From Parcubacteria group bacterium (lineage in GTDB: Bacteria; Patescibacteriota; Patescibacteriia; UBA9934; GWF2-40-263): a DNA stretch of 64,000 nucleotides. Every line of letters begins with the position of its first letter. Position 1 is the stretch's first letter. The stretch lies in the NCBI GenBank assembly GCA_013204395.1, contig JABMNZ010000008.1, forward strand, positions 15,014 to 79,013, read 5' to 3'. Both the position numbers and the translations under genes were made by a program. Of this stretch, positions 4,015 to 64,000 are shown piece by piece. The notes beneath the pieces are model-generated. The model saw only the letters and a program-made list of their open reading frames with translations, was not told the DNA's origin and made no database searches.

Positions 4015-4186
4015 AAACTATAATATTCCCTGAGCTTGTCGAAGGGGTATCTGACAGGCTGGTTTAGTTGATGATGGGGCGAGCTGATCACCGAGACAAA
4101 CTTGCGAGATCGGACGCATGTAGGCCGACTCGAAGTTGTCACGGTGCTCACTCGCCGTGGTTACCAATTGGTGGGTGGGGGGGATT

Positions 4187-4220
4187 AAAAAACAAGGTCC
4201 ATCGAGGACCTTGTTTTTTT
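4187..4220. terminator. Bidirectional rho-independent terminator (A-run / hairpin / T-run)
   Basis: aaaaaa-caaggtcc-atcga-ggaccttg-ttttttt. It lies downstream of the minus-strand lipoprotein gene. Confidence 0.5.
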
Positions 4221-4278
4221 TGGTAAGAAAAAAGCCCGCTGCGAATTGCAGGGGCGGAGTGAACCGCGTGGGTTCAGC

Positions 4279-4773
4279 TCAGTTGCGGCAGGTGACCAGG
4301 GAGCAGCCTTCGCCGCCGGGGTCGGACCAGAGCCAGACGTCCAGTTCCTCTCCGAGCCAGTTGGCACCGGACTCAGCGATGGTGTCGGCGCTGGCGCCGT
4401 TGCCTTCGCACAGGTCGCGACCGGAGTCGTAGTTGACGTTCCAACGCACGCACTGGACGTTGGAGACCACGACGGTGTAGCCCCTGTCGTCCAGGATGTC
4501 CTGGAGGTCGCTCAGATCAGCTTGGAAGAGGACTTCTCCCTCGAAGGACTCCTCGTCAACGATGTGCCAGCCCAGGAGGCCGACATCGGACTCGCGCTCG
4601 GCGAACTCCATGGTGAGGAGGGCTGAATCGGTCAGGGCGTCTGCCCAGACCTCGAAGGTGTCGCTGTCGCCGTTGGGGGCGGGGGTGTCGGGGTCACCAT
4701 CGGACGTGCCGACCAGGTCGGGCGCGCAGGCGGTGAGGGTGAGGCCCATCAGGGCCAGGAGCATGTGTCGCAT
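4279..4773 (-). CDS. Lipoprotein, function unknown (GC-rich insert)
   Basis: MRHMLLALMGLTLTAC is a signal peptide with a lipobox. The body is acidic and Cys-containing. The local GC is visibly much higher than the flanks. Confidence 0.6.
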   Translation of the reverse strand: MRHMLLALMGLTLTACAPDLVGTSDGDPDTPAPNGDSDTFEVWADALTDSALLTMEFAERESDVGLLGWHIVDEESFEGEVLFQADLSDLQDILDDRGYTVVVSNVQCVRWNVNYDSGRDLCEGNGASADTIAESGANWLGEELDVWLWSDPGGEGCSLVTCRN

Positions 4774-4849
4774 TGGGCGTAAGCCTCCTCCAGCATTTGT
4801 TTCGGGTGCTGGCTAGGCAGATTATCACCGTGACGGGCAATGTCAAGGA

Positions 4850-6364
4850 TTATAGCTCTATGGCGTCCTGTCCTCGGTATTGAAGCGCCTCAGCCAAATG
4901 TTCGACCTCAATGTCAGGTTTTCCCTCAAGATCTGCAATCGTGCGGGCAACTTTTCGGACACGCGTGTAGCCTCGTGCGGATAATTTATTGGTCCGCAAC
5001 GCTTGTTCCAAAAGAGACTTTCCATCAGGGGAAAGTTTGCAGAGTTCGTCTAACTGTCTGGTTGAGATCTCGTTGTTCGTTGAGGCTCGCTCCCCCATTC
5101 TTTTGCGCTGAACCATTCTGGCATTGTTTACACGTCTGCGAATGATCTCAGAACATTCAGGAAGATCCTCGGACAAAAGTTTTTCATGTTTAACAGCTGG
5201 AACTTCGATGACGATGTCGAATCGATCTAGTAATGGTCCTGAGATACGTTTTTGATATTTAATCACCTGGTCAAGTCGGCAGGTGCAGTGACGATTTGGG
5301 TTTGAAAAATGTCCGCACGGGCATGGGTTCATGGCAGCAGCTAATAGAAAGCGTGCTGGAAATTGCACAGAACCTGCTGCTCGTGAGACTGTCACATGTC
5401 CATCTTCAAGAGGTTGTCTGAGATGTTCAAGGGCGTAGCGAGAGAATTCTGGGAGCTCATCTAAAAATAAAACACCTCTATGTGCCAGTGAGACTTCGCC
5501 AGGCTTTGGCCACGCACCACCTCCGACGAGGGCGACAGCTGAAGCACTGTGGTGTGGCGTTCGAAAAGGTCGGGCTTGGATTAGGCCAATGTCTGGGAGA
5601 GAAATGCCGGCTATGGAGGCTATGGAAGTTACTTCCAGCGATTCTTCATATGACAGGTCTGGAAGAATTGATGGTAGAGATCTTGCAAGGAGTGTTTTAC
5701 CAGCGCCTGGAGGACCCTTTAAAAGAATATTATGAGCTCCAGCTGCGGCGATTTCCAATCCACGTTTTGCACCCTCCTGGCCTTTCACATCTGAGAAGTC
5801 ATATGGGTGTGATGAAACATCCTTTTGTTTTATTGTAGACGCTGGTTTGATTAGTTCAACACCCAGAAGATGATCAACAACTGTGCGGATGGAGTCTACC
5901 CCGTAGACCGTAAGACCACGCAGGGCACTAGCTTCTGCAACATTTTGTTCTGGAACAAAGAGAGTTTTCCTACCTGTTCTATGTGTCATTAGGGCTGTGG
6001 TGAGCGATCCCCTTACTGGTCGAATTGATCCATCAAGAGCTAATTCACCTATAAAGACAGAGGATTCAATACTTGGACGTGGGATGACACCCATGGCTAA
6101 TAGTATCGAGAGAGCAATGGGCAGATCGTAAACAGGTCCTTGCTTTCGAACATCAGCTGGAGCGAGGTTTACCGTCACACGACCACGAGGAAAACGAAAG
6201 CCGGTGTTTCTCATGGCAGCTCGTATTCGGTCCCGAGCTTCTTTGACAGAAGCATCTGGTAAACCAACTACAGAGAACGAGCGTAGCCCCATTGTCACAT
6301 CAGTTTCTACTGTGATTGGAACCGGCTCGATTCCAATGGTCGCACTTGTAATAATATGAAACAT
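4850..6364 (-). CDS. comM: YifB/ComM family Mg-chelatase-like AAA+ ATPase
   Basis: 504 aa. The N-terminal Lon-like domain MFHIITSATIGIEPV..., Walker A GPPGAGKT, and conserved C-terminal zinc-binding Cys residues match this family. Confidence 0.85.
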   Translation of the reverse strand: MFHIITSATIGIEPVPITVETDVTMGLRSFSVVGLPDASVKEARDRIRAAMRNTGFRFPRGRVTVNLAPADVRKQGPVYDLPIALSILLAMGVIPRPSIESSVFIGELALDGSIRPVRGSLTTALMTHRTGRKTLFVPEQNVAEASALRGLTVYGVDSIRTVVDHLLGVELIKPASTIKQKDVSSHPYDFSDVKGQEGAKRGLEIAAAGAHNILLKGPPGAGKTLLARSLPSILPDLSYEESLEVTSIASIAGISLPDIGLIQARPFRTPHHSASAVALVGGGAWPKPGEVSLAHRGVLFLDELPEFSRYALEHLRQPLEDGHVTVSRAAGSVQFPARFLLAAAMNPCPCGHFSNPNRHCTCRLDQVIKYQKRISGPLLDRFDIVIEVPAVKHEKLLSEDLPECSEIIRRRVNNARMVQRKRMGERASTNNEISTRQLDELCKLSPDGKSLLEQALRTNKLSARGYTRVRKVARTIADLEGKPDIEVEHLAEALQYRGQDAIEL

Positions 6365-6413
6365 AAAACCCCCAGCAATTACGCAGGGGGTTTATTGATA
6401 TCTTTAGACTAGT

Positions 6414-7270: not shown

Positions 7271-7299
7271 ACATTTTTTCTTTTAAAACATTACTGAAA

Positions 7300-17024: not shown

Positions 17025-17702
17025 ATGGATGCGGCTGGAATCGTAGAGAAAGGAAACGGTTTGATCGTGCGCTTCGCACCACTTCACGAGAGCGCAAAGG
17101 TGCTTCCCGGGGGGCTCGCAAGCATCATCGTCGATGGGAGGCGAGAGAGCCCGTGGAAGGAACAGTGGCGGTGTTCCAAGTGCAACCACAACTTCCTGGT
17201 CCACCCGACCGATGAGCAGTGCACGTGGTGTCATCAGGGGGTCGTGCAACAGCTCTGGACTGAGCGTCGCGTAGAGCGGGAGACTCTCGAGGCTCTGCAT
17301 CAGCGATGCTCTCAGGTCACAGCAGCCTTCGTTGTGGAGGCTGGTCACCCCATTCTTGTGGGGATGATCGAGCTCAGGCCGGTTGCCATGGATCAGCTCA
17401 ACGAACAGGTCGGCGCTGATGTGATCGCTGGGGTGCTCAGGCACTTCGGCCGCTCTGGAGCCTACTTCTTCGTTCAGCACCTCATCGTGGCTCCTCAGTG
17501 GCGCTCGCAAGGCATTGGGTCAAAGCTGCTTGAGCAAGCGATCAAGCGCGCGCAGCCAGATGCGCGCTCTGGCATCCCACTCATCTGCTTGGCGTCGCGC
17601 ACGCCGGTAGCTCAGGACTGGTTCGCCAAGCACCAGCTGGCAGCGGTACAGTTCATCAACGATCGGCACCTGCTGGTGGGCAACATCGTCCGCTCTGTCT
17701 AG
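17025..17702 (+). CDS. GNAT family N-acetyltransferase with an N-terminal zinc ribbon (GC-rich insert)
   Basis: CSKC...CTWC zinc ribbon, then GNAT motif A VAPQWRSQGIGSKLLEQA. GC is visibly higher than the flanks. A ctccgac-cacagc-gtcggag + T-run terminator follows at about 17735-17765. Confidence 0.7.
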   Translation: MDAAGIVEKGNGLIVRFAPLHESAKVLPGGLASIIVDGRRESPWKEQWRCSKCNHNFLVHPTDEQCTWCHQGVVQQLWTERRVERETLEALHQRCSQVTAAFVVEAGHPILVGMIELRPVAMDQLNEQVGADVIAGVLRHFGRSGAYFFVQHLIVAPQWRSQGIGSKLLEQAIKRAQPDARSGIPLICLASRTPVAQDWFAKHQLAAVQFINDRHLLVGNIVRSV

Positions 17703-18708: not shown

Positions 18709-18784
18709 GGCGGCTATGGTGAAACGGTTATCACACGGGCTTGTGGTGCCTGTATTACGGGTTCGATTCCCGTTAGCCGCCCCA
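18709..18784 (+). tRNA. tRNA-His (anticodon GTG) with encoded G-1 and CCA
   Basis: G-1 + acceptor GCGGCTA/TAGCCGC, discriminator C73, anticodon loop TTGTGGT, T-arm ACGGGTTCGATTCCCGT. A palindromic terminator follows at 18785-18825. Confidence 0.85.
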
Positions 18785-18964
18785 TATAAAAACCTCGGCT
18801 TCTGCCGGGGTTTTTATATGGGGCGGTGAATGAGGATGAGCCACCCGTCTGGTTCGATGATGGAGAGAGTGAGCGTAATAGACAAAAGTCGGTATGTTCC
18901 ACAACGACTTTTGTCTATTGCCGAACGAACGACATCAATATGGCCGGTACCTCTGCAGGGCCAT

Positions 18965-18977
18965 ATTCCCGTTAGCC
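18965..18977 (+). repeat. Degenerate direct copy of the tRNA-His 3' end (attcccgttagcc; 19/23 identity over gggNNNNattcccgttagccNcc)
   Basis: Compare 18766-18778 with 18965-18977. Confidence 0.4.
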
Positions 18978-19016
18978 ACCTCGTTTAAATACCTTTGCGC
19001 AAGCGATATTATTTGA

Positions 19017-19781: not shown

Positions 19782-19806
19782 GTGTTGATTCTATCACCTT
19801 TTTGGG

Positions 19807-19835
19807 TTGACAGCAATAGCATTATAGGGTATAGT
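19807..19835 (+). promoter_or_regulatory. Sigma70-like promoter TTGACA-N17-TATAGT
   Basis: It lies in the divergent intergenic region between trmB and ORF 19891. Confidence 0.4.
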
Positions 19836-19890
19836 CATTTGTCGAGTTGGAATACGTCCAGCGAGATGCAGGCAATGAAGCCTTTGGAGG

Positions 19891-20091
19891 ATGAACATGA
19901 ACGTTTTTATCGTCATGAAGATTGACGGGTGGGCAAACGGCAACCCCAAGGTCCTAAATGGACAGGTGCTGAACGTCTATCAGGATCGGTCCAACGCTGA
20001 GAAGGATGCGGGGGATCGAAATGCCGCAGAAGGGAGCGAGTACATCTGTTTCGAGGTGATTGAACGAACGGTTCTCACCGAAAATAAGTGA
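19891..20091 (+). CDS. Small hypothetical protein
   Basis: 66 aa ORF downstream of the promoter. Weak evidence only. Confidence 0.3.
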   Translation: MNMNVFIVMKIDGWANGNPKVLNGQVLNVYQDRSNAEKDAGDRNAAEGSEYICFEVIERTVLTENK

Positions 20092-47581: not shown

Positions 47582-47657
<76 letters not shown>

Positions 47658-48555: not shown

Positions 48556-48805
48556 TTTCTGTTCCCTTCGCGAACAGTTGTGCGACTCAATAAAGAAAAG
48601 CCCCACACTTCCTCCCTCACGCAAGAAAAGGAAGTATGGGGCGCCGGGCTGAGCCCGGCAGACCGAGCGATCCACGCTGGGGGGCATGGCTCTAGCTCGG
48701 CAAACCGAGACTTACCGCAGGGGTGACGTCTCGGTTTAGCACATGCACCTATTAGGCACGGCTGGTTAGTCCAGCCATGGGGGTCCCCTTAAGGGCATGT
48801 GGGTC

Positions 48806-49117
48806 TCAAAGTCTGAAGGTTGGTCCCGAATGGGTGAGCAAAAGCTCGTTGATACTCTGCTCATCGAGTTGCCTGATTTCCTCAGTGGTTGAGGCGGTCT
48901 GCGTTGAGTCAGCTGGTTCCTGGGTCTGGATCAGAGCGTCCTTGACCGTGTTGCGCGCCCACGAGATGGGGATCGACATCAAGAAGCAGAAGAGCATGAA
49001 TGCTGCGAAGGCACGCTTGCCATCAGCAAAGACGCTTCTTGACAGCTCCCCAAGGATAAATCCCAGCAGCAGAGCGTTCAACAAGAAGCTCAGGTTCATC
49101 AGTAGTACAGGGTCCAT
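48806..49117 (-). CDS. Small membrane protein (GC-rich); start moved to ATG 49117 (MDPVLLMNLSF)
   Basis: 2 TM segments. Confidence 0.4.
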   Translation of the reverse strand: MDPVLLMNLSFLLNALLLGFILGELSRSVFADGKRAFAAFMLFCFLMSIPISWARNTVKDALIQTQEPADSTQTASTTEEIRQLDEQSINELLLTHSGPTFRL

Positions 49118-49143
49118 GGATTTTCCTCCTCTATTGCATTGCG

Positions 49144-50031
49144 TTAGCTCACTGGACACTCGGTCCAGGAGCCATCTTCACTGAAGGTGCGTCCGCTCTC
49201 GGTGCCGTCGGCATCTGGAACAACGTAGCACTGGTCGATGCGTTCGACACGTTTGGGATCTGCGCACGGTCCCCATCCACCGCTTGGCAGATGTTGCATG
49301 GGAAGGGCGTAGCCTTGAGCACATCCTACCACGTGGCACCCACCAGGCTCTGGTCCGCCAGCTTGGCCGTGGATGAGCTTGAAGCCGGTGCACAGTGGGT
49401 GGGTGTCTCCCTTGGATTCTTCGGGAAGGGTGCGGATACGCGCACGTGGATGTGTCATGACCGGGGTCACCACGACAGGTTCGGAGCTTTCTTCCAGAAC
49501 CGTGACTTGGAATGGGTCACGTTCGATCTCTGACGCCGCGGAATCGCCATCACCCGAGTCATCATCGTCAGTGGCACTGACGTCGTCACCCGAATCGTCA
49601 TCATCGGCTTCGACGCTCAGGCTCGGTAGCTCGGTTGAGACTACAGATAGCTCGGGGAGCTGTCCGATCGCACGGGTGAGCAGGGCGATCAGGTCCTTGT
49701 CTTGTGTGATGATGATCGTCTGTCCTTTGGGGCCACCCTCGACCACCGTGAGCCCATCGGGTTCAGTTTCTCGATCTTCTTGATCCTGCTGTTCAGGAAT
49801 TCCTTCGGACGGATGCTCTGAGGTAAGACCTTTGAGGATCCGTGAAGGGGTCATGGTGCCACCGATACAGAGGATCACTCCTCCGATGATGAACACAGGC
49901 AGAGCTGCTTTGTGAGGAGAGTCCCCACGTCTTTGCAGTCGCCAGCCGATCCAAAGGACAAAGAGTCCGATCAGCACAAAGAGTCCATCTACGGCCGTCA
50001 AAAGTGGATCCATGGACGTGCCTCCTTCCAT
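49144..50031 (-). CDS. Membrane-anchored protein with an acidic linker and a Cys-rich C-terminal domain (GC-rich)
   Basis: TM LLTAVDGLFVLIGLFVLWIGW. DDDDSGDD repeats. The C-terminal domain has 8 or more Cys. Confidence 0.5.
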   Translation of the reverse strand: MEGGTSMDPLLTAVDGLFVLIGLFVLWIGWRLQRRGDSPHKAALPVFIIGGVILCIGGTMTPSRILKGLTSEHPSEGIPEQQDQEDRETEPDGLTVVEGGPKGQTIIITQDKDLIALLTRAIGQLPELSVVSTELPSLSVEADDDDSGDDVSATDDDDSGDGDSAASEIERDPFQVTVLEESSEPVVVTPVMTHPRARIRTLPEESKGDTHPLCTGFKLIHGQAGGPEPGGCHVVGCAQGYALPMQHLPSGGWGPCADPKRVERIDQCYVVPDADGTESGRTFSEDGSWTECPVS

Positions 50032-50166
50032 TGTATTTGCTCAAGCGGCGAGAAACCTCGTCGCTTCAGTTAAATAGCCCTGCGCGCCATCTCCCGAGGG
50101 GAGGAGATGGGGCAGGGCACCGAGCAGAAGCGCTCGGTAGTATTGGACGGTGTAACCGCCCGTTCT

Positions 50167-52200
50167 CTATTTGGGGGCGGTGGTCATCTGACAGGAGTGA
50201 GCCGTTGCCGGATCACTGCCGATGCAGATGGCAAACGCCTTGGCGCCGGACTGCCGACACTCGAAGATCGTTCCCGCTTGCCCACTGGTGAGCGTTCCAG
50301 TCCCTTTGACAGGACACTTCTGGGTATTCACCATGGACGTCGCGTACGACTCCGTCGCTTCGACCCTGGCCTTGAGATCTCTCTCTCGGCTCTGGCTGCC
50401 TTGCATGTCTGTGCGGAGAGCACGGATTTCCCTTTGCGTTGCGCTCAGGTCCGAAGCAATGCTGCTGACTCGCCTTCGGGTGTCTCGCTCCAGATTCCCC
50501 ACGTCATCACGGAGATCATCGACGACGGTAACTGCCTGTGTTGCAAGACTCTCGTATCCGTCTCTCTCACGCGTGAGGATGACGATCTTCGCATCCTTTT
50601 CCGTGTGTTCCGCGATGGCACCAGCGAGGGTTTCGCCGTACTGTCGCAGTCGCTCGGACTGTTTGCTCAGCTCGGCGTCCAGACCTTGGTCTCGTGACAG
50701 ACTGGCATTTCGGTCCAGTGTGTCCTCACGAAGGAGGAAGGCCGTGATCGCCAGTCCTAGTAGGACAAGAAGCGCGGTGAGTGACCACAGGGCAGAGGCG
50801 GGCACGAGCTGCTCACGCTTGACCTTGCGGACGGCGGGAGCGACTTCGGCCTTGCCTGGGATCGGCATGCGGCCTGCACGTCCCATGGACCCGGAGCGAC
50901 TTCGCTTGGGAGGAGCTGTAGGGAACAATCCGTCAGATCGATCGTCCTTGATCTCCCATTCCGTTGGGTCTTGGTCTCGCAGAGCTTCGTTCAGCGGGTC
51001 GACTTCTTCATGGCTGAGGAGCGGTCCGCTCTCGGCCACGGGGAACCTTGCTCCGATGGATGCAGGCTTGCCCCCTGTGACGTCTTCTCCACGCAGTCGC
51101 GCAACGGAACGCTCGAAGCTTTGCAGATCGATGCGCACACCCGACAGAGCCAGGGCCACATCTGCAATGGCTTCTGCACGAGCCTCATTGTCCAGTTCTC
51201 CCTCCGGAAATACTCCAGACACGAGATCATGCACGGTGGCGTAGCTGTCGAACGCAGACGCTTCCTCTGGTGGGGTGATCTCGGGGATCAAGACCAAGTA
51301 CGGAGCCATGTCCTCTGCCGTCGGCGGAGGGACATCCTCCAGGTCATCGCCGTCCAGCTCGGAATCGTCGAGATCAGGCACCTGTGGAGCGTTGACCTCG
51401 GCGGCGAGCTGGCGCAGCACTACTTCGGACTGGAGGTTCTCAAACTGGTGTGCATTCTGGTACCGCACGATGACGTAACCAAGAAGTTCGGGGTTCGGCT
51501 CCAGGTTTCCCAGAAGTACCCGAGTGATCACCGCGAGGTCACGCCCCTCCAGTCTTGATGGGGCTTCTGCAACGATTCGCTGGACCTGCGGACCGCCGTC
51601 TACTCCTAGGTAGGGAGCTTCCGACACGTTCACAAGTCGACCCAAGCTCTCTTGGATCAGGCGGACCTGACCTTCCAGAGTCTTCAGGTCATGCTCCTCG
51701 TATTCGGGGACCCACTCATTGACGACCTTGAGATCAACGTTGGCGCGCCGGTCGAGCCTCTCTTGCTCTCGTGCCTTGTCGGCCGCGGCTTGCTCAGCAG
51801 CTGCTCTCAAGCCCGCCTGTCGTGCGTCCTCGGATCGGTCACCGGTCATCAGAACGATGACCGGAACATCAGGTTCAACTTCTGCTTTTTGAGCCACTTC
51901 AATCTCCAAGCTCATGGTTGAGTCAGACGGCAAAGCGTCCGGGGTGTCGGTGACAGGGGAGTCCGGGATCGGAATCGCGTTGCTCAAGTGATCAGGTGGA
52001 TCTCTCGGATCCGACGACCTGAGTCGAATCGGCGCAGGCAAGGTCCGGGGACCGCCTGGGGGTTCTTCGTTGCCCATCAGCCCTCCTTGTATCAATCCAA
52101 CAGAGTGTGTCATTAATGCCTCTTCTAAAGAGCGCCCCGTCTCTTCCAGATGAAAAGACGTGAGGTCGAGGTCAATGCAAAACATTGAAATCGACCCCAC
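50167..52200 (-). CDS. Large hypothetical single-pass membrane protein with an extracytoplasmic coiled-coil and Cys-containing C-terminus (GC-rich)
   Basis: 677 aa. Acidic N-terminal half, TM LWSLTALLVLLGLAITAFLL, coiled-coil, and a Cys-rich terminus. Confidence 0.5.
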   Translation of the reverse strand: MGSISMFCIDLDLTSFHLEETGRSLEEALMTHSVGLIQGGLMGNEEPPGGPRTLPAPIRLRSSDPRDPPDHLSNAIPIPDSPVTDTPDALPSDSTMSLEIEVAQKAEVEPDVPVIVLMTGDRSEDARQAGLRAAAEQAAADKAREQERLDRRANVDLKVVNEWVPEYEEHDLKTLEGQVRLIQESLGRLVNVSEAPYLGVDGGPQVQRIVAEAPSRLEGRDLAVITRVLLGNLEPNPELLGYVIVRYQNAHQFENLQSEVVLRQLAAEVNAPQVPDLDDSELDGDDLEDVPPPTAEDMAPYLVLIPEITPPEEASAFDSYATVHDLVSGVFPEGELDNEARAEAIADVALALSGVRIDLQSFERSVARLRGEDVTGGKPASIGARFPVAESGPLLSHEEVDPLNEALRDQDPTEWEIKDDRSDGLFPTAPPKRSRSGSMGRAGRMPIPGKAEVAPAVRKVKREQLVPASALWSLTALLVLLGLAITAFLLREDTLDRNASLSRDQGLDAELSKQSERLRQYGETLAGAIAEHTEKDAKIVILTRERDGYESLATQAVTVVDDLRDDVGNLERDTRRRVSSIASDLSATQREIRALRTDMQGSQSRERDLKARVEATESYATSMVNTQKCPVKGTGTLTSGQAGTIFECRQSGAKAFAICIGSDPATAHSCQMTTAPK

Positions 52201-52387
52201 GCTTTCTTCCCATAGAAAAGAGGGGGATTTGTTGACTAGCTAGCTTATAAGAGCCTACACAGGAGACTAGTCTTTTTATCTATTGTAAGGGAAGGAGTCT
52301 GTCAAAAAAAGCCCTGTTTGTCAAGGGAGAGTGCCCAGTGGGGGTTGACGGAGATGTGGGCTAGTAGTAGCCTTCCTCCGTTCCGGT

Positions 52388-53371
52388 TTGTGGCACCCGG
52401 CACGTCCACCTTGTAGCCACACAGAGGAAGCAGATGAAAAACCCCAGTCCTTTGCCCCCCCGATGTCGCTGATGGGCGCTCGGCTCGAACTTCGGCTGCG
52501 AGCGGCCGTCGTTGAATCCACCCCCGATGAGGATTACGAAGACATCGATGACCTCGATGACGATCCCGTCGTCCGCATCACGGACCTGTCGGAAGTTCGG
52601 TGCTTGGACATGTACGAGTGTGAGGACTTCTTCTACACCCTCGCTCACGAGCTCGGCCTGACGGCGGTGCCCGTGGGTGACTACGTCTTTACCACCAGCC
52701 TGCAAGGGTTGGAGGTCGTGGAGGTCCCCGAGCAGTGGGGTGACAAGGGTTGTCAGGCCATCATGGACCGATTCCCGGTCGGCGGAAGGGCTCTCCAGCA
52801 GGAGCTGATCACCAGCCTGGTCGAGTGGCCGCTGGCGGTCAACATCACGGAAGCGGCGAAGATGCTCTTCCAAGGTGCGCTGTCTCTCGTGGCTGAGCGT
52901 CTCGGAAGTGGTGATGAGCTGGCCGAGGACTTCCTCACCATCAAGCCGCTCTCCCCGCGTGAGAACGGTGCGATGGAGATCATGCAGACGCTGGTCGACG
53001 AGATCATGGTGCTCACCTCCCCGGATCCCCGAGGCTTCCCCTCGCTGATCGTCGAGGTCGTCCGTTGGGAACCCAGCCCCGTCGGGAACTGGTTGAACGC
53101 CGCGCTCGCCACCGCCATGCAGGAGACCATCAAGGACAACAAGAAGGAGTGGGTCACCGAGTGGCTGGTGGCCTGTGACGCGCGACTGGTTGCCGTGCGA
53201 GCGGACGCCGAGGCGAGGTTCACTCGCGCTGCCAGTCAGAACGAGGCGGTCCGTGCCCTCTTCGCGAGCGATGAGCCCGCTGAGTCGGACGCCAGCGAAG
53301 GGCCGTCCTTCCAGGACTCCAGTCCGACCCCCGGTGCGGATACCGAGGGCCAGTCGCAGCACGGAGCCTGA
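52388..53371 (+). CDS. Hypothetical acidic protein (GC-rich)
   Basis: 327 aa with no motifs. A terminator ccccgcga-tacgca-tcgcgggg + T-run lies at 53403-53429. Confidence 0.45.
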   Translation: MWHPARPPCSHTEEADEKPQSFAPPMSLMGARLELRLRAAVVESTPDEDYEDIDDLDDDPVVRITDLSEVRCLDMYECEDFFYTLAHELGLTAVPVGDYVFTTSLQGLEVVEVPEQWGDKGCQAIMDRFPVGGRALQQELITSLVEWPLAVNITEAAKMLFQGALSLVAERLGSGDELAEDFLTIKPLSPRENGAMEIMQTLVDEIMVLTSPDPRGFPSLIVEVVRWEPSPVGNWLNAALATAMQETIKDNKKEWVTEWLVACDARLVAVRADAEARFTRAASQNEAVRALFASDEPAESDASEGPSFQDSSPTPGADTEGQSQHGA

Positions 53372-53509
53372 CTCCACAACGCGCTGAACAACTTGTTCAG
53401 CACCCCGCGATACGCATCGCGGGGTTTTTATATTGACGTTTTTCTCTTTCTTCCCTAACCTTCTCTCTCCAGCGACTTTCTCGTCTGGACCCCCCTGATT
53501 GGAGGAGAC

Positions 53510-54532
53510 ATGACCGAATGGGATATCCCAGACGATCCTGAAGACGCGACGTTTTCACTCGTCATCGAGGTGAGCGCATCTGTAAGTGGGGTGCCTCAGT
53601 ACGAAGTCCGGACTCTTCCCATGATCGAGTTCAAAGTATCTCAAGAGGAGTGCATGGAACTTCTGGCTGCAAGGGGTGCCGCACCTTCTCCTCGCTTTGG
53701 CACCTACGTTGTGCTTGCGGATCGCAACCGTGTGTACGTGCTGTCAGCCCCCGAAGGTACGACTCTGGAAGAGCGTCAGTTCATTGCAGGGGCCGTTCGT
53801 GAGAGTCTGCAGGAGTGTCGAGGTCAGTTGGTTGCGATCGCACAGCGGTTGGATCCAGACACGATCAGGGAGGTAGCCATCGCGGCTGTCCGTTCTGTGG
53901 TGGAAGTGAGACGTTTGGAGGATCCCCTTCATGACGATCTGGAGATCCCTGGCCCGAAGCACATTCGGATTGTTGCAGGTTGTTCCGCAGAGGACTTCAC
54001 TACCTTTGGGCTCATGATGATTTCTCCTGGGGTTGGAACTCCTGTTACCAGACTCAAGCCTGGTGCATATTCGATCCACGATGTGAGTGTGTTGGCTTGT
54101 CCCAGGACCCCACGTGGTCCAGTCGACGTGCTGGTCGCGCTCATGCCATCGGATCGGCTGTTGGCAAGAGTCGTGCACGCGGCTCTGGTGACTCGGATAC
54201 AAGAAGCGATTCCTCGGGTCTACAGCGAAGTCCTGATGGGTCTGGCTGTAGCGACCGAGCTGAAGATCCTGCGGTCTGAGCGCTTGTTGGATGAACTCAA
54301 GCGAGCAGGAGCGATCGACCAACATGCGTTCGCTCTGGCAGCGGAACATCGGGAGACCACAGATCGCGCCGAAGCAGAGGAAGCGAAGGAGACACGTGCG
54401 GCCGCAAGGCTTCAGACGCATCTTGAACGCGGCCGCGAACAAATGGCTTTGGGGCAGGACGATCCAGAGGTCACAGATGATTCAGGGTCAGATCTCGATC
54501 CTGATGGAACTACGACGGTTCCTGAAGCGTAG
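53510..54532 (+). CDS. Hypothetical protein (GC-rich)
   Basis: 340 aa with no motifs. A terminator cccgcg-aattacgtcg-cggg + T-run lies at 54555-54580. Confidence 0.45.
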   Translation: MTEWDIPDDPEDATFSLVIEVSASVSGVPQYEVRTLPMIEFKVSQEECMELLAARGAAPSPRFGTYVVLADRNRVYVLSAPEGTTLEERQFIAGAVRESLQECRGQLVAIAQRLDPDTIREVAIAAVRSVVEVRRLEDPLHDDLEIPGPKHIRIVAGCSAEDFTTFGLMMISPGVGTPVTRLKPGAYSIHDVSVLACPRTPRGPVDVLVALMPSDRLLARVVHAALVTRIQEAIPRVYSEVLMGLAVATELKILRSERLLDELKRAGAIDQHAFALAAEHRETTDRAEAEEAKETRAAARLQTHLERGREQMALGQDDPEVTDDSGSDLDPDGTTTVPEA

Positions 54533-58326: not shown

Positions 58327-58327
58327 C

Positions 58328-59770: not shown

Positions 59771-60439
59771 CTACCGTGGTTGGCGGATCGGGATGAATCC
59801 TCGGTGTTGTTGGTGCCAATGCTGTGGCGCTGTGCTGAGGATTCTTCTCTCGATGAGCCGTGGGGATCGTTGTGGGAAAAAGATCTTCTTGGCCGCGCGG
59901 GCCTGTTCGATCAGTTCCCTTACTCGCGTCTGTTGCCGCCTCTGTTCCTTGTGTAGTGCATGTAGGACGCGGTCGCCTACAAGTTCCATCAGGCTGAATC
60001 TCTGTGTGGGAGGGTTGCGACGAGATCTGCCGATGTTGATGCGAACACCGAAAAGGCGATGCCGTCCGAAGTTTCGAAAACGACGAACAATGTCCTTGAT
60101 GGCCCAGGCAACCCGCACGGCGATTCGTGAAATCGACTGATGACGAGAAGCAATAATCTCGATGTAAACACGAACACCTCGCCTTGTGGTGCTCAGCGCG
60201 GCTACAGCGAAGTCAGTCATCTTGCGACGGTTGTCCCTGCGAAGGGTCAACTGCATCTCGAAAGTGGGTTCATGTCTTGCGTGTGGTGGTGGGAGGATCC
60301 TGAGATCCACTCTCTGGGAGATGTTTCCCTTTGTTCCACGAGTGAGTTCATGTGGGACTGCCATTCGTGACAGTTCTTCACTGAGCTCAAGCTCCAACTC
60401 AAGTCCAGCTTTAAATCCACCGTGACGTCGATTGCCCAT
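59771..60439 (-). CDS. Hypothetical Arg-rich basic protein (GC-rich insert between efp and recA). It is not RecX-like by eye
   Basis: 222-aa open frame, unlikely by chance. No Cys, and no HUH or DDE motifs. Composition differs from both neighbours. Confidence 0.4.
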   Translation of the reverse strand: MGNRRHGGFKAGLELELELSEELSRMAVPHELTRGTKGNISQRVDLRILPPPHARHEPTFEMQLTLRRDNRRKMTDFAVAALSTTRRGVRVYIEIIASRHQSISRIAVRVAWAIKDIVRRFRNFGRHRLFGVRINIGRSRRNPPTQRFSLMELVGDRVLHALHKEQRRQQTRVRELIEQARAAKKIFFPQRSPRLIERRILSTAPQHWHQQHRGFIPIRQPR

Positions 60440-62116: not shown

Positions 62117-62791
62117 TTAGGAAGTCTCGCTCACTTCCACTTGCGGGCAGGACTCATGGCCCAGAGCACGCATGTCAGCTCCGGCGCGTAGCCACAGCTG
62201 GTCTAGGACTTGCTGCGGAGTGATGCCGTGGGTGTCGAACGCGACGACAAAGGGGTCGCCATCAAGTTCGTTACTTACCCTGTAACCCACGGGGCAGCGC
62301 CAGGAAGTGCCGTTTATGCCAGCACCGAGCATCCTATTAATCTGCAGTGAAGCGATCAGGAGCCTTCGGATTGCTTCAGTGGCTTCCTGCCAGAATTGAA
62401 GTATGGTCGGCATCCAGAGCTCTGGATCCAGAATGGTCCCTTGTAGGTTTGCATCGGTCAAGATGGCCCCGTGCAGACGTGAGAAGGTCAAGGTGGCCCC
62501 GGTCAAGTTGGCCCCGGTCAGGTCAGCTCCTACCAGGTCAGCCTCATCAAGGCTGGCATTGACCATGACCGCAGCAGCGAAACTTGCCCTGCGAGCATGG
62601 ACCTTCTTCATGTTGGCCCCGGTCAGGTCAGCATACGTGAGGTCCGCGCCAGTCATGAAGATTCTTTGCAAGTCAGAATCACGGAGATCCAGCTGACTTC
62701 CTTTTACCTTTCGACGCTCAGCGATCGCCTCACGGCCAAGCTTGGCAGCGGCGTAGTCTTCTCTGTCGGCCACGTTGGCCTCCGGTTTCAC
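62117..62791 (-). CDS. Pentapeptide-repeat protein with a conserved C-terminal domain ending LGHESCPQV (GC-rich)
   Basis: Tandem A(D/N)LxG pentapeptides (ADLTYADLTGANM...GADLTGANLTGATL). Confidence 0.7.
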   Translation of the reverse strand: MKPEANVADREDYAAAKLGREAIAERRKVKGSQLDLRDSDLQRIFMTGADLTYADLTGANMKKVHARRASFAAAVMVNASLDEADLVGADLTGANLTGATLTFSRLHGAILTDANLQGTILDPELWMPTILQFWQEATEAIRRLLIASLQINRMLGAGINGTSWRCPVGYRVSNELDGDPFVVAFDTHGITPQQVLDQLWLRAGADMRALGHESCPQVEVSETS

Positions 62792-62847
62792 CGAGGGGAT
62801 TCATCGGTGGTTGATTGGAGAGACTCCATCGCTCAGCTCGAGAAAAT

Positions 62848-62925
62848 CGAGGGGAATGATGGAGTCCCGAGTGCAAGCGAACGGGAATCCACGTCTTGGA
62901 TCCGTGCGCTTGGCTCGGGCGTTCG
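62848..62925. repeat. About 75-bp upstream element duplicated at 63733-63807, with a shorter third trace at about 61960
   Basis: gatggagtcccgag[tc]gcaagcga...gcgcttggctcgggcgttcgt is shared. ggtctgtactcct is found at 61965 and 63706. Confidence 0.45.
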
Positions 62926-62927
62926 TT

Positions 62928-63596
62928 CTAGATCTGCGGACAGCTCTCGTGGCCCAGCTCGCGCAGGTCCGACTCGCGTCGGGCCCAGAGCTCGTTGAGC
63001 ACCTGCTGGGCGGTCACGGCGTGGCCGTACCAGGCGTGCGTGAAGCCGGTGAAGCTGGCCTGCCCCTGCGGGAAGTCGTTGCCCATGACTCCGTCGGGAG
63101 ACTGGCTCAGGTTCTTCCAGCTGGGGTTGCTGATGTGCCTGGGGTCGTCCAGGAGGTCGATGACCTCTTCGCGCAGCTCACGATCCGCAGCATCCCACTG
63201 GGTGCCGAGAATCTCGAACCACACGTTGGGATCCAGGAAGGTTCCCTCCAGGTCGGCCTCCTCCATGGTGGCGCCGTTGAAAAACGCACCCTTGAGAATC
63301 GCCTCCGTGAGGTCAGCGTAGCTCAGGTCCGAGTTGCTGAAGGCCACGCCCGAGAGGTCAGCCCCCGAGAAGTTGGTCCACACGCACTTGGTCCTCCAGA
63401 GGCTCGCACCGCTCAGGTCCGAGCCCGAGAGGTTGGCACCGGAGAGGTCGGCTCCGCCCCACTCCATGAACATGAGGTTCATGCCCGAGAGGTTGGCAGC
63501 GGTCAGGTCCAGCTTGCCGCCGGGGTTCGCCGTGTTCCAGGCGTCGACAGCAGCTTTCCCTTCGAGAACGAGAGCGATGTGCTTGGGGTTGGCCAT
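62928..63596 (-). CDS. Pentapeptide-repeat protein, paralog of 62117..62791 (C-terminus LGHESCPQI)
   Basis: ANLSGMNL...ADLSGANLSGSDLSGASL. Same domain order and similar length to its neighbour. Confidence 0.7.
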   Translation of the reverse strand: MANPKHIALVLEGKAAVDAWNTANPGGKLDLTAANLSGMNLMFMEWGGADLSGANLSGSDLSGASLWRTKCVWTNFSGADLSGVAFSNSDLSYADLTEAILKGAFFNGATMEEADLEGTFLDPNVWFEILGTQWDAADRELREEVIDLLDDPRHISNPSWKNLSQSPDGVMGNDFPQGQASFTGFTHAWYGHAVTAQQVLNELWARRESDLRELGHESCPQI

Positions 63597-63803
63597 GAAG
63601 GCTCCTTTTCTTCAACTTAACCCAGTTAACGGGACGAGAAGATCTCGTATGTTCGGTGAATATGAATTGCGTTCTGAAACTCCACCCCTAACGAGACGCA
63701 ACCAGGTCTGTACTCCTGATGGTCTCGTCATAGATGGAGTCCCGAGCGCAAGCGATCAGGACCCCGTCATGGGTCTCAAGCGCTTGGCTCGGGCGTTCGT
63801 GTG

Positions 63804-64000
63804 CTAGTCCAGGTCCTGGTCGAACTCTTCGAACCAGGCCGGCTCGTCATCGTCAAACCCACCTTCCAGATCGAGACGTCGATCTGCCCAGTAGTCGAAC
63901 CAGACTTCAGCCTGCACCATCACCGCATCGTCATCGTCACCGACGTCTTCTTCGTCGGAAAACAGCAGGAGGTGGGGAGGCAGTTCCTGCTCGGCATGGA
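63804..64000 (-). CDS. Partial CDS (C-terminal 65 aa only) of an acidic protein; the rest lies beyond the window end
   Basis: The minus-strand frame is open from the window edge to TAG at 63804-63806 and reads ...SDEEDVGDDDDAVMVQAEVWFDYWADRRLDLEGGFDDDEPAWFEEFDQDLD*. Confidence 0.3.
   Translation of the reverse strand, partial: HAEQELPPHLLLFSDEEDVGDDDDAVMVQAEVWFDYWADRRLDLEGGFDDDEPAWFEEFDQDLD

What the first reader, a model, noticed from the sequence alone, without database searches (positions are those of the whole stretch)
4100..64000. Mosaic base composition: six or more GC-rich inserts of hypothetical surface/secreted genes in a low-GC housekeeping backbone
Hand counts on single 60-nt lines give about 33 % GC in polA, about 47 % in pnp and about 63 % in the 23743-24909 gene (two lines).

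The GC-rich blocks lie at 4.2-4.8, 17.0-17.7, 19.9-25.0, 47.8-54.5, 59.8-60.4 and 62.1-64.0 kb. Each carries lipoprotein, secreted, Cys-rich, Arg-rich or pentapeptide-repeat proteins. Each is bounded by host-like AT-rich promoters and hairpin terminators. The 47.8 kb block abuts tRNA-Ala, and the 17 kb block sits between xerD and tRNA-Arg.

This pattern suggests repeated acquisition from a high-GC donor. If the organism is an epibiont of high-GC Actinobacteria, as Saccharibacteria-type CPR are, host-to-symbiont transfer is an attractive hypothesis. The alternative is a chimeric assembly.
Basis: partly seen in the sequence, partly recalled or inferred. Interest (0 to 1): 0.65.

Follow-up and report, generated by a model that had tools for sequence, protein, structure and literature searches.

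The report
GC-rich orphan-gene islands in a CPR genome
About a quarter of this stretch of an Uhrbacteria-like (CPR) bacterial genome consists of real, GC-rich cassettes of lineage-specific unknown genes that sister species carry at the same places, so they are not host DNA or assembly errors, and one of them holds 98 % G/C at silent codon positions in a way that must be actively maintained.

Summary
The mosaic is real. Six blocks (15.5 kb, 24 % of the window) have 54-62 % GC against a 45.4 % backbone. It is not an assembly chimera: a Logan assembly of another run and contigs of a congener (~88 % DNA identity) show the same junctions and the same GC contrast.

The backbone is Uhrbacteria-like CPR, not Saccharibacteria. 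Apart from a GNAT and two pentapeptide proteins, the GC-rich genes match no Pfam, NCBIfam, PHROG or PADLOC model. The three searched against 5.8 billion proteins have full-length relatives only in contigs of the same clade, in the same synteny. None is named actinobacterial, so host-to-symbiont transfer is not supported.

The blocks lie in hotspots between core genes, and their content varies between species.

The extreme gene (23743-24909, GC3 0.98) has a syntenic ortholog with GC3 0.97. Its silent G/C-to-A/T differences are about 12 times rarer than the backbone process predicts, while C-G swaps are 3.6 times commoner. Its bias is therefore maintained, not decaying.

For the moderately GC-rich islands, an old import from a GC-richer pool, possibly CPR, is equally possible. 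The force that maintains the bias is unresolved.

The parts
4279..4773 (-). Block 1: 164-aa lipoprotein-like orphan (MRHMLLALMGLTLTAC lipobox). GC 0.66, GC3 0.87.
   Evidence: No family hits. The ortholog in congener B has the same GC3, 0.88. The Logan assembly bridges both junctions.
17025..17702 (+). Block 2: 225-aa GNAT acetyltransferase with an N-terminal Cys-rich segment, lying between the XerC/D-type recombinase gene and tRNA-Arg(TCT). GC3 0.72-0.73.
   Evidence: Pfam PF13508, 35.9 bits against a cutoff of 27. tRNA at 17849-17925. Ortholog at the same place in the congener. No plasmid match.
21167..23447 (-). Block 3, left part: two orphan genes. hyp319 (21167-22126) has a signal anchor; hyp422 is at 22179-23447. 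GC3 0.59-0.60.
   Evidence: Orthologs in the congener are 88-94 % identical with ordinary synonymous divergence.
23603..25018 (+). Block 3, core: the hyp388 transcription unit.
- Promoter-like TTGACA-17-TAGTAT at 23603-23631.
- About 110-nt 5'UTR (GC 0.59), with GGAG 7 nt before the ATG.
- CDS 23743-24909 (388 aa; GC3 0.98, GC1 0.60, GC2 0.42).
- 3'UTR (GC 0.62).
- Terminator hairpin plus T-run at 24985-25018.
   Evidence: Ortholog with GC3 0.97. dS 0.24 and dN 0.23, against flanking dS of 0.58-0.62. Family of 33 among 1.84 billion representatives. AF2 pLDDT 84.
47582..47657 (-). tRNA-Ala(GGC) at the left edge of block 4. Its 5' end, not its 3' end, faces the island.
   Evidence: Logan contig _1469 starts inside it. 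The junction is bridged in the congener contig.
47857..54532 (.). Block 4: five orphan genes.
- hyp276: 47857-48687 (-)
- hyp295: 49144-50031 (-), two TM helices plus an acidic, Cys-rich tail
- hyp677: 50167-52200 (-), one TM helix and coiled coil
- 302-aa gene: 52463-53371 (+)
- hyp340: 53510-54532 (+)
GC3 is 0.55-0.79 and GC1 is 0.62-0.70.
   Evidence: Orthologs in the same order between the TPR gene and ychF in the congener, and hyp677 plus same-sized neighbours in the same interval on the JGI contig. Absent from six more distant relatives. The + strand is chosen for 52463-53371 from the indel pattern.
59771..60439 (-). Block 5 (weak): 222-aa Arg-rich orphan between efp and recA. GC3 0.54.
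   Evidence: A 222-aa ortholog (90 % identical) in the congener, and a 220-aa gene at the same place in the JGI contig.
62117..63596 (-). Block 6: two paralogous pentapeptide-repeat proteins that share a C-terminal domain (33 % identical). penta1 is at 62117-62791 (GC3 0.65) and penta2 at 62928-63596 (GC3 0.88). GC-rich sequence continues to the window end.
   Evidence: Pfam PF00805, 80 and 106 bits. Paralogy. penta2 has one full-length ortholog (83 %), and all other hits cover only the repeats. In the congener, five other GC-rich genes stand in the place of penta1.
18766..21110 (+). The tRNA-His 3' end (18766-18795) is duplicated at 18965-18994. It is followed by a 2.1-kb segment (19007-21110: TrmB regulator and small ORFs) that the congener lacks at this place.
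   Evidence: repeat, 25 of 30 nt; alignment gap. This is an att-like footprint. The segment is only partly GC-rich.

Best explanation
The GC-rich blocks are genuine chromosomal cassettes of clade-specific accessory genes. They include a lipoprotein, membrane-anchored and acidic or Cys-rich proteins, pentapeptide proteins and a GNAT. They sit in a few variable hotspots between core genes of an Uhrbacteria-like CPR bacterium.

Shown:
- The cassettes are inherited with the chromosome. They are in the same places with the same GC contrast in a congener.
- The hyp388 family lies next to polA even in a distant Uhrbacteria genome.
- The excess G+C is concentrated at synonymous third positions.
- In the best-resolved case (hyp388, GC3 0.98) the excess is held there by a force acting on silent sites. 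G/C-to-A/T silent changes are almost absent while C-G swaps are frequent. The only tolerated A/T-ending codons are mostly GGT and CGT. C is preferred over G on the coding strand whichever way the gene points.
- The preferred codon set is the one towards which the ribosomal-protein genes S15, S18 and S20 also lean.

Inferred:
- The most likely force for the extreme genes (hyp388, and probably the lipoprotein and penta2) is selection on codon or mRNA composition in abundantly made, fast-evolving envelope or accessory proteins.
- The moderately GC-rich islands (GC3 0.55-0.79, with raised GC1 and GC2) look like genes that spent a long time in a 55-60 % GC background. They are most simply old imports, predating this genus, from a GC-richer pool within the CPR. 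Uhrbacteria-like contigs of 57-62 % GC exist. These islands are now decaying slowly or are weakly maintained.

Neither class is actinobacterial host DNA, and neither is an assembly artefact.
For: Reality and continuity.
- The Logan assembly of run SRR28106091 is 99.98 % identical over window 15510-38185 and bridges blocks 1-3. It also covers 47612-60760.
- Congener contigs (GCA_041294345.1, GCA_041294325.1 and GCA_041294365.1; ~88-89 % DNA identity) are colinear. They show 56-65 % GC islands in a 46-48 % backbone at the same positions.

Lineage restriction.
- hyp388 has 3 hits, hyp677 has 5 and penta2 has 2 full-length hits among 5.8 billion proteins. All hits whose context could be read are in the same synteny.
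- There are no Pfam, NCBIfam, PHROG or PADLOC hits for the orphans.
- The proteins tried against viral contigs, phages and plasmids gave no hit.

Maintenance in hyp388.
- The ortholog has GC3 0.97 at 67-69 % aa identity, while the flanking proteins are 94 % and 82 % identical.
- All 36 silent differences are between G/C-ending codons, or are GGC/GGT and CGC/CGT.
- S<->W silent differences are 0.020 per site against 0.24 expected. C<->G differences are 0.118 per S site against 0.033 in the backbone.
- The backbone process would leave GC3 at or below 0.89, about 43 A/T-ending codons. Observed: 9 and 11.
- GGT and CGT are enriched among the A/T-ending codons (p=0.02 and 1e-4).
- The distant syntenic homolog in L003 has the top preferred-codon score of its locus.

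Direction of bias.
- S15, S18 and S20 rank 1st, 2nd and 4th of 36 backbone genes for the hyp388 codon set (p=0.002).

Decoupling of codon positions.
- hyp388 has GC1 0.60 and GC2 0.42, as in the backbone, with GC3 0.98.
Against: - The ribosomal-protein genes are only mildly biased (preferred-codon fraction 0.36-0.52 against 0.96). EF-P and SSB are not biased at all. This is odd if translational selection were strong enough to fix 98 % of the codons in one gene.
- The UTRs of hyp388 (GC 0.59-0.62) and the spacers inside islands (0.48-0.59 against 0.38-0.47) are also GC-enriched. Codon selection alone cannot explain that.
- For block 4 the drop in S<->W differences (0.53x) is matched by a drop in C<->G differences (0.64x). 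There is therefore no specific evidence of maintenance in block 4.
- The low divergence of the lipoprotein gene is shared with its normal-GC neighbour uppS.
- Only two species have DNA available, so no substitution could be polarised.
- There are no expression data.
- Not every accessory insert is GC-rich. The congener has a 1.98-kb insert with GC3 of 0.35-0.48 inside block 4.
- No donor was identified for the moderately GC-rich islands.
Confidence: 0.5

Rival explanations
1. Continuing exchange with a GC-rich mobile or pan-lineage gene pool. On this view the cassettes, hyp388 alleles included, spend most of their evolutionary time in GC-rich CPR relatives or in their extrachromosomal elements. 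They are repeatedly swapped into the same hotspots by recombination in the conserved flanks. Their composition therefore reflects the pool, not this chromosome.
For: - Gene content differs between species at the hotspots.
- Uhrbacteria-like contigs of 57-62 % GC exist.
- Synonymous divergence in block 4, the GNAT and the lipoprotein gene is about half or less of the backbone's. That would follow from exchange after speciation.
- hyp388 alleles show 3.6 times more C-G swaps than the backbone, as if they were older than the species split.
- There is an att-like tRNA-His repeat, and tRNAs lie at two block edges.
- A published survey found that most gene transfers in Patescibacteria occur between Patescibacteria (PMC12455944).
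Against: - The blocks contain no integrase, transposase, phage or plasmid gene, and no flanking direct repeats were found in block 4.
- The identity profile across hyp388 shows no sharp breakpoints, and its promoter and 5'UTR are conserved.
- Codon choice in hyp388 and the lipoprotein gene (CCC only, no CCG) is the opposite of the GC-rich Uhrbacteria-like contigs, which prefer CCG.
- GC1 and GC2 of hyp388 are backbone-like.
- No member of the supposed pool was found among 5.8 billion proteins.
Confidence: 0.25
2. GC-biased gene conversion. On this view the hotspots recombine often, and a repair bias towards G/C raises GC at all weakly constrained sites in and around the cassettes.
For: - The GC excess extends to UTRs and spacers inside islands.
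- Islands coincide with regions of variable content and patchy divergence.
- Suppression of G/C-to-A/T changes with free C-G swaps is what gBGC predicts.
- gBGC has been proposed for bacteria (PMC4450053).
Against: - The reported bacterial effects are a few per cent of GC3, not 0.40 against 0.98 (my recollection of PMC4450053).
- Low-divergence segments, possibly recently exchanged, such as uppS, hyp262 and part of the giant gene have ordinary GC3.
- The codon-specific pattern is not expected from a plain G/C bias. GGT and CGT are tolerated, CCC is used but never CCG, TTG is absent, and C exceeds G on the coding strand on both replication strands.
- The GC-rich tract of hyp388 starts near the predicted transcription start and ends at the terminator.
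Confidence: 0.12
3. One reading: repeated recent transfer from a high-GC donor such as an actinobacterial host of an epibiotic CPR cell, with the imports now ameliorating.
For: - The composition is atypical. tRNA genes lie at two block edges and a recombinase gene lies beside block 2.
- GC1 and GC2 are raised in block 4, as in genes from a GC-richer genome.
Against: - No actinobacterial or other non-CPR full-length homolog was found for the three genes searched.
- Orthologs are in the same synteny in congeners and on a third contig.
- The GC contrast is conserved across ~12 % DNA divergence.
- hyp388 does not ameliorate.
- The backbone is Uhrbacteria-like, for which no actinobacterial host is known (the host statement is my own knowledge).
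- Tetranucleotide signatures give no donor signal. Islands against their own backbone give r=0.51, and the best foreign locus gives 0.55.
Confidence: 0.05
4. Chimeric assembly or binning artefact that joins high-GC and low-GC organisms.
For: The only evidence is that one Logan contig ends inside tRNA-Ala, at the left edge of block 4.
Against: - Every other junction is bridged by a different assembler on another run at 99.98 % identity.
- All junctions, the tRNA-Ala one included, are reproduced in contigs of a different species from three assemblies.
Confidence: 0.01

Closest known systems
Genomic islands and intra-phylum gene exchange in Patescibacteria (mSystems 2025, PMC12455944)
   Same: These are discrete, compositionally atypical accessory regions in small CPR genomes, and most inferred exchange is between Patescibacteria. 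In this window the content also varies at fixed hotspots, and two blocks lie next to tRNA genes.
   Different: The blocks here carry no mobility genes and are conserved with their composition across species. They are GC-richer than the chromosome; from my own knowledge, bacterial islands are usually AT-richer. One cassette shows active maintenance of its composition, which that paper does not describe.
Hypervariable surface-structure loci with persistently atypical composition, such as the low-GC O-antigen and capsule clusters of enterobacteria (my own knowledge, not tested here)
   Same: The chromosomal position is fixed between conserved genes. The cell-surface genes are divergent or alternative, and alleles may be older than the species. 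The composition stays different from the chromosome over long periods.
   Different: The sign is opposite (GC-rich, not AT-rich). The genes are orphans, not sugar-pathway genes. In hyp388 the deviation is almost purely at synonymous sites.
Extreme codon bias of very highly expressed bacterial genes (translational selection)
   Same: NNC and NNG codons are used almost exclusively, with GGT and CGT tolerated. The coding strand prefers C whichever strand the gene is on. The direction is the same as in the S15, S18 and S20 genes.
   Different: The ribosomal-protein genes of the same genome are far less biased, and EF-P and SSB are not biased. The UTRs are also GC-rich. Expression is unknown.
GC-biased gene conversion in bacteria (Lassalle et al. 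2015, PMC4450053)
   Same: GC3 is raised in regions likely to recombine, and G/C-to-A/T fixation is suppressed.
   Different: The magnitude is far larger. The pattern is codon-specific and bounded by the transcript. Low-divergence, possibly recently exchanged, segments with normal GC3 lie alongside.

Membership tests
Classical horizontally acquired genomic island | Base composition differs from the chromosome | tested here: met
   54-62 % against 45.4 % GC. GC3 is 0.54-0.98 against 0.34-0.48 in most backbone genes.
Classical horizontally acquired genomic island | Integrase, transposase or other mobility genes inside or at the edge | tested here: not met
   No Pfam, PHROG or NCBIfam mobility hit in any block. 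The only recombinase is a XerC/D-type gene beside block 2, conserved as a core gene in the congener.
Classical horizontally acquired genomic island | Insertion at the 3' end of a tRNA gene with flanking direct repeats | tested here: not met
   tRNA-Ala faces block 4 with its 5' end, and no flanking repeat was found. Only tRNA-His has a 3'-end duplicate, beside a 2.1-kb strain-specific segment.
Classical horizontally acquired genomic island | Patchy distribution: absent from close relatives | tested here: inconclusive
   Blocks 1-5 and penta2 are present in the congener. Block 4 genes found no homolog in six more distant contigs, where TPR and YchF lie 65 bp to 6.2 kb apart. penta1 and the congener's five genes are species-specific.
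Host-derived (actinobacterial) genes in an epibiont | Closest homologs in the putative host lineage | tested here: not met
   hyp388, hyp677 and penta2 have full-length hits only in same-clade contigs, where the context could be read. The other island genes were checked only against family libraries and the fetched loci.
Host-derived (actinobacterial) genes in an epibiont | Composition decaying towards that of the recipient (amelioration) | tested here: not met
   For hyp388, GC3 is 0.98 and 0.97 where at most 0.89 is expected, and S<->W differences are 0.08 times the expectation. For block 4 the test is inconclusive.
Prophage or plasmid remnant | Homology to phage or plasmid proteins | tested here: not met
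   No meaningful PHROG hit for 10 island proteins: the only match was a marginal one for the GNAT (E=0.0085, family of unknown function). No relative in IMG/VR for hyp388 or hyp677. No tblastn hit in INPHARED or PLSDB for the three proteins tried.
Integron cassette array | Integron-type integrase next to the cassettes | tested here: not met
   The recombinase scores 139.5 bits on TIGR02249 (cutoff 265) and about 250 bits on the XerC and XerD models. attC sites were not searched.
Translationally selected, highly expressed genes | Preferred codons are the same as in ribosomal-protein genes | tested here: inconclusive
   S15, S18 and S20 rank 1st, 2nd and 4th of 36 backbone genes for the hyp388 codon set (p=0.002). 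However, only four ribosomal-protein genes are in the window, their bias is mild, and S6, EF-P and SSB are unbiased.
Translationally selected, highly expressed genes | High measured expression | not testable with these tools
   No transcriptome or proteome is available. Only a consensus-like promoter, a GGAG site and a strong terminator were seen.
gBGC tract | GC enrichment also at non-coding sites of the tract | tested here: met
   Island spacers have 0.48-0.59 GC against 0.38-0.47 for backbone spacers. The hyp388 UTRs have 0.59-0.62.
gBGC tract | A/T-to-G/C alleles favoured in polymorphism, and locally high recombination | not testable with these tools
   This needs population read data.
Pentapeptide-repeat proteins (Pfam PF00805) | Tandem pentapeptide repeats above the Pfam threshold | tested here: met
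   80.4 and 105.6 bits against a cutoff of 20.2 for 62117-62791 and 62928-63596.
GNAT acetyltransferases (Pfam PF13508, PF00583) | GNAT domain above the Pfam threshold | tested here: met
   35.9 bits (cutoff 27) and 28.9 bits (cutoff 20.7) for 17025-17702.

The most novel reading that the evidence does not exclude
This CPR lineage may keep a set of fast-evolving envelope or host-interaction genes in a separate, selection-maintained 'GC-ending codon dialect'. In hyp388 no A/T-only trinucleotide occurs anywhere in 1,167 nt. One possible purpose is to couple their translation to a particular tRNA subset or growth state. Another is to make their mRNAs resistant to AU-directed RNA decay. On this reading, composition is a regulatory property of the gene class and not a record of ancestry.
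Probability: 0.15. Interest if true: 0.8.

Novelty: new variant of a known kind. Interest (0 to 1): 0.5.

Why it matters
Atypical composition is routinely read as recent foreign origin, and in CPR symbionts as a clue to the host. Here that inference fails. GC-rich islands make up about a quarter of a 64-kb stretch. They are lineage-specific and inherited with the chromosome. In at least one gene the composition is actively held far from the genome's equilibrium.

Three consequences follow:
1. Composition-based HGT, host-prediction and binning methods should be used with caution on Patescibacteria genomes.
2. Gene callers fail in a specific way on such genes. They call the stop-free antisense 'shadow' ORF of GC3-rich genes, which happened in several public assemblies.
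3. A small, structurally confident but unmatched protein family (hyp388) is singled out as a likely abundant, fast-evolving component of Uhrbacteria cells and is worth targeting in proteomes.

Tried and rejected
- AF2 on the single hyp388 sequence failed (pLDDT 31). With a 23-sequence alignment it succeeded (pLDDT 84, pTM 0.82).
- Foldseek against PDB and BFVD gave only partial beta-propeller-like matches (TM at most 0.35). No fold or function could be assigned.
- A profile of the hyp388 family against PDB sequences and Pfam gave nothing.
- Tetranucleotide z-score correlations did not discriminate. Islands against their own backbone gave 0.51, backbone parts against the rest gave 0.54-0.66, and the best unrelated locus gave 0.55.
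- The PADLOC scan was empty, so a defence-island reading has no support.
- No direct repeats flank block 4.
- Rfam found only the four tRNAs.
- An antigenic-variation model based on silent cassettes was rejected, because hyp388 has no paralog or partial copy in the window.
- A DGR-type mechanism was considered and dropped. The Pfam scans of the island genes showed no reverse transcriptase, and A is not depleted relative to T in the gene (AT skew is positive at 24.0-24.5 kb).
- The in-gene dN/dS of about 1 for hyp388 is not taken as positive selection, because its dS is suppressed. Against the flanking dS it is about 0.4.
- Exact look-ups of P0001 and S18 returned nothing.
- Cluster look-ups gave no organism names for hyp388 family members.
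- Literature searches found no report of this pattern in Uhrbacteria or other CPR.

Full report
OBSERVATION

The window has 48.5 % GC overall. In 500-bp windows most of it lies at 39-50 %. Six stretches reach 52-66 %. With block limits set from the profile and the ORFs, 250-bp windows give a backbone of 45.5 +/- 3.9 % (n=194, maximum 54 %) and blocks of 57.9 % (n=61).

The blocks are:
- 4101-4850: 62.1 %
- 17001-17760: 59.9 %
- 20600-25015: 56.4 %
- 47660-54560: 58.2 %
- 59771-60439: 54.3 %
- 61980-64000: 59.5 %

Together they cover 15.5 kb, or 24 % of the window.

The excess is mostly at third codon positions. GC3 is 0.54-0.98 in block genes against 0.34-0.48 in most backbone genes; a few small backbone genes are higher (DUF3307 0.63, S15 0.57, S18 0.52).

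Four details need correcting:
- polA is 45 % GC, not 33 %.
- 19.9-20.6 kb is not GC-rich.
- The 59.8-kb block is weak.
- The 17-kb gene is a GNAT acetyltransferase, not a surface protein.

tRNA-Ala abuts the 47.8-kb block. The 17-kb block lies between a XerC/D-type recombinase gene and tRNA-Arg.

WHAT THE BACKBONE IS

The backbone genes are RNase HII, a LysM-M23 peptidase, UppS, YifB, LspA, PNPase, S15, DsbA, a XerC/D-type recombinase, PolA, HolA, S20, RmuC, YchF, S6, SSB, S18, EpmA, EF-P and RecA.

PolA is closest to Candidatus Uhrbacteria MAGs (61 %, 57 % and 57 % identity). The next hits are other Parcubacteria at 45 % or less. NCBI labels the source 'Parcubacteria group bacterium', with locus tags HQ488_* on a contig of 90,663 bp. 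The organism is therefore a CPR bacterium, but not a Saccharibacteria-type one.

NOT AN ASSEMBLY ARTEFACT

A Logan assembly of run SRR28106091, made with a different assembler, contains a 39-kb contig. It is 99.98 % identical to window 15510-38185 and extends to before the window start. It thereby bridges blocks 1, 2 and 3. A 13-kb contig covers window 47612-60760 and bridges the right edge of block 4 and both edges of block 5.

Its left end falls inside tRNA-Ala. That is the only junction this assembly does not bridge.

All junctions, that one included, recur in a different species, here called 'B'. B is at ~88-89 % DNA identity and is represented by GCA_041294345.1, GCA_041294325.1 and GCA_041294365.1. 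Logan contigs from SRR29660416 and SRR29660417 are 99.9 % identical to B.

B shows the same mosaic. Its islands have 56-65 % GC in a 46-48 % backbone at the homologous positions.

WHAT THE GC-RICH GENES ARE

Only three island genes match a Pfam family: the GNAT and the two pentapeptide-repeat proteins. The rest match nothing in Pfam, NCBIfam, PHROGs or PADLOC. The proteins tried against IMG/VR contigs, INPHARED phages and PLSDB plasmids also matched nothing.

The translations show the following:
- a lipoprotein signal (4279-4773, minus strand);
- a signal anchor (hyp319);
- two TM helices plus an acidic, Cys-rich tail (hyp295);
- one TM helix plus coiled coil (hyp677);
- an Arg-rich basic protein (hyp222).

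Searches against 5.8 billion proteins gave:
- 3 hits for hyp388: itself, B at 67 %, and a JGI contig at 65 %;
- 5 hits for hyp677: itself, 86 %, 59 %, 53 % and 51 %;
- for penta2, itself and one full-length ortholog at 83 %, with all other hits covering only the repeats.

The JGI contig (50,480 bp) carries both the hyp388 and the hyp677 orthologs. They lie in the same synteny as here: hyp388-DUF3307-TrmB-PolA-HolA-S20-RmuC, and recA-220 aa-efp...ychF-346 aa-741 aa-295 aa...TPR.

No hit carries an actinobacterial name.

HOTSPOTS

In six more distant Uhrbacteria-like contigs (YchF 60-72 % identical), the TPR gene and ychF are 65 bp, ~0.4, ~0.8, 1.9, 1.9 and 6.2 kb apart. No homolog of any block-4 gene is present in them. 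Here the interval is 7.2 kb.

The hotspots differ between species in these ways:
- B has block 4 plus a 1.98-kb low-GC insert inside it, with two genes of GC3 0.35 and 0.48.
- The JGI relative has a longer island.
- Between recA and penta2, B has five other GC-rich genes where this window has penta1. They include a lipoprotein-like gene with GC3 0.91.
- Window 19007-21110 (TrmB and small ORFs) is missing at this place in B. It begins right after a duplicate of the tRNA-His 3' end.

The blocks therefore occupy a few variable inter-core-gene sites. They carry no integrase, and block 4 has no flanking repeats.

The related contigs themselves range from 42 to 62 % GC. A GC-richer gene pool therefore exists within the lineage.

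THE EXTREME GENE (hyp388, 23743-24909, plus strand)

Composition. GC1 is 0.60 and GC2 is 0.42, as in the backbone, but GC3 is 0.98.

Codon use:
- AAG, GAG and CAG: 100 %
- NNC in two-fold families: 99 %
- CCC 10 : CCG 0
- no TTG
- the nine A/T-ending codons include three GGT and one CGT

Evidence that the plus frame is the real one:
- PGAP and JGI call it.
- Indels against B are in-frame.
- 33 family members exist among 1.84 billion representatives.
- A 23-sequence alignment gives a confident AF2 model, with pLDDT 84 and pTM 0.82.

Several pipelines instead called the stop-free antisense ORF. That ORF is an automatic by-product of having almost no A at sense third positions.

Function. The fold has no convincing match. 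Foldseek TM-scores are at most 0.35, with partial propeller-like hits. Sequence profiles match nothing in PDB or Pfam.

Comparison with B:
- The protein is 67-69 % identical, while its neighbours are 94 % and 82 % identical.
- The B gene has GC3 0.97.
- By Nei-Gojobori, dS is 0.24 and dN is 0.23. The neighbours have dS of 0.58 and 0.62 with dN/dS of 0.05 and 0.17.
- All 36 silent differences are between G/C-ending codons, or are GGC/GGT and CGC/CGT.
- G/C<->A/T silent differences are 0.020 per site against ~0.24 expected from the backbone process.
- C<->G differences are 0.118 per G/C site against 0.033 in the backbone.

If the gene had been 100 % G/C-ending at the split and had then followed the backbone process, each copy should now have GC3 of about 0.89, or about 43 A/T-ending codons. 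They have 9 and 11.

GGT and CGT are over-represented among those exceptions (p=0.02 and 1e-4).

A distant Uhrbacteria MAG (PolA 56 % identical) has a family member 2.7 kb upstream of polA. It has GC3 0.61 against ~0.44 and the highest preferred-codon score of its locus.

This gene is therefore old in the lineage, and its silent-site composition is maintained, not decaying.

The transcript. The GC-rich tract runs from just after a promoter-like TTGACA-17-TAGTAT (23603-23631) to a terminator (24985-25018). The 5'UTR has GC 0.59 and the 3'UTR 0.62. The DNA just outside has 0.39-0.40.

WHICH FORCE?

The codon set preferred by hyp388 is also the one towards which S15, S18 and S20 lean. They rank 1st, 2nd and 4th of 36 backbone genes (p=0.002).

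The preference for C over G at four-fold sites follows the coding strand, even where it opposes the replication-strand skew.

These points, together with the tolerance of GGT and CGT, favour selection at the codon or mRNA level in abundantly expressed genes.

Against this:
- The ribosomal-protein genes are only mildly biased (0.36-0.52 against 0.96).
- EF-P and SSB are unbiased.
- The UTRs and island spacers are GC-enriched too.

GC-biased gene conversion would explain the spacers. It would not explain the codon-specific pattern or the size of the effect. In addition, low-divergence segments with normal GC3 lie alongside.

THE OTHER ISLANDS

Suppression of G/C<->A/T silent differences scales with GC3:
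- ratio to expectation 0.08 for hyp388;
- 0.08 for the lipoprotein gene;
- 0.28 for the GNAT;
- 0.44-0.62 for block 4 and penta2;
- ~1 for hyp319, hyp422 and hyp222.

This trend is not conclusive. In block 4 the C<->G differences are reduced about as much (0.64x against 0.53x). The block may simply share a more recent ancestor with B's copy. The low divergence of the lipoprotein gene is shared with its normal-GC neighbour uppS.

Block-4 genes have raised GC1 (0.62-0.70) and GC2 (0.44-0.48). That fits genes that lived long in a 55-60 % GC genome.

The divergence between the available species is shallow. Only about 20 % of any excess would have decayed per lineage. An old import that is ameliorating slowly therefore cannot be told apart from weak maintenance.

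Tetranucleotide signatures give no donor signal.

VERDICT

The chimeric-assembly alternative is excluded. Transfer from an actinobacterial host is not supported.

The islands are lineage-specific accessory cassettes in variable hotspots, a known kind of feature in Patescibacteria (PMC12455944). Their polarity is unusual, because they are GC-rich.

One clearly documented cassette has an extreme silent-site composition that is actively maintained. The cause of that maintenance is the open and interesting part.

Noticed in passing
window 18766-18795 and 18965-18994; 19007-21110: The 3' end of tRNA-His is duplicated 199 bp downstream (25 of 30 nt). The duplicate sits at the left edge of a 2.1-kb segment (TrmB-family regulator and small ORFs) that the congener lacks at this place. 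In a third relative TrmB sits next to polA instead. This looks like an att-type footprint of an integration or rearrangement.
   Followed up: partly
window 23773-24633 (-), 52361-53377 (-), 62775-63620 (+): Long stop-free antisense 'shadow' ORFs overlap GC3-rich genes. In other public assemblies of this organism and its congener, gene callers annotated the first two as the genes, in place of the real ORFs on the opposite strand. The third lies antisense to penta2, which Pfam supports as the real gene. For 52361-53377 a 1-bp indel against the congener at 52455 breaks the minus ORF. All indels inside the plus ORF (52463-53371) are multiples of three.
   Followed up: yes
window 4015-4222: This ~200-nt spacer between uppS and the lipoprotein gene has a TATAAT at 4016 and a bidirectional terminator at 4190-4222. 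The surrounding region (window ~3500-5000) is 95-98 % identical to the congener, while DNA further out is 84-88 % identical. It has no Rfam match. It could be a small RNA, or only part of a recently exchanged segment.
   Followed up: no
window 47582-47657 (tRNA-Ala); Logan contig SRR28106091_1469: The independent assembly breaks exactly inside tRNA-Ala, at the left edge of the largest island. This could be chance, a repeat, or a population polymorphic for the island. The junction is intact in the congener.
   Followed up: partly
window 33181-36666 and 36590-44431: Two giant genes encode proteins of 1,161 aa (fn3, purple-acid-phosphatase N and CarboxypepD_reg domains) and 2,613 aa. The second is 3,035 aa in the congener. 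Its identity to the congener is patchy, from 70 % DNA identity at 41.5-42.5 kb to 93-95 % further on.
   Followed up: no
L166 6800-8731 (congener), inserted at about window 53542: The congener carries a 1.98-kb insert inside block 4, with a 160-aa and a 413-aa gene (faint T4SS_pilin hit). It has backbone-like or lower GC (GC3 0.35 and 0.48). Accessory DNA in this lineage is therefore not always GC-rich.
   Followed up: partly
L173 6294-10087 (congener, between recA and the penta2 ortholog): Five further GC-rich orphan genes (GC3 0.70-0.91) stand where this window has penta1. One is a lipoprotein-like gene with GC3 0.91. A further GC-rich block follows ftsK at the other end of that contig (GC3 0.71-0.78).
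   Followed up: partly
window 3501-5000, 7001-7500, 11001-11500, 12001-12500, 42501-44500, 52001-52500, 56501-57000, 58001-58500: Divergence from the congener is itself mosaic. Segments of 93-98 % identity are interspersed in an 83-89 % background, which suggests homologous exchange between the two species. These segments do not coincide systematically with the GC-rich blocks.
   Followed up: partly
window 62117-62791 and 62928-63596: The two pentapeptide-repeat proteins share a non-repeat C-terminal domain (...QQVL..LW.R...D.R.LGHESCPQ). Among full-length proteins it was seen only in the close ortholog of penta2. It is an uncharacterised domain fused to the repeats.
   Followed up: no
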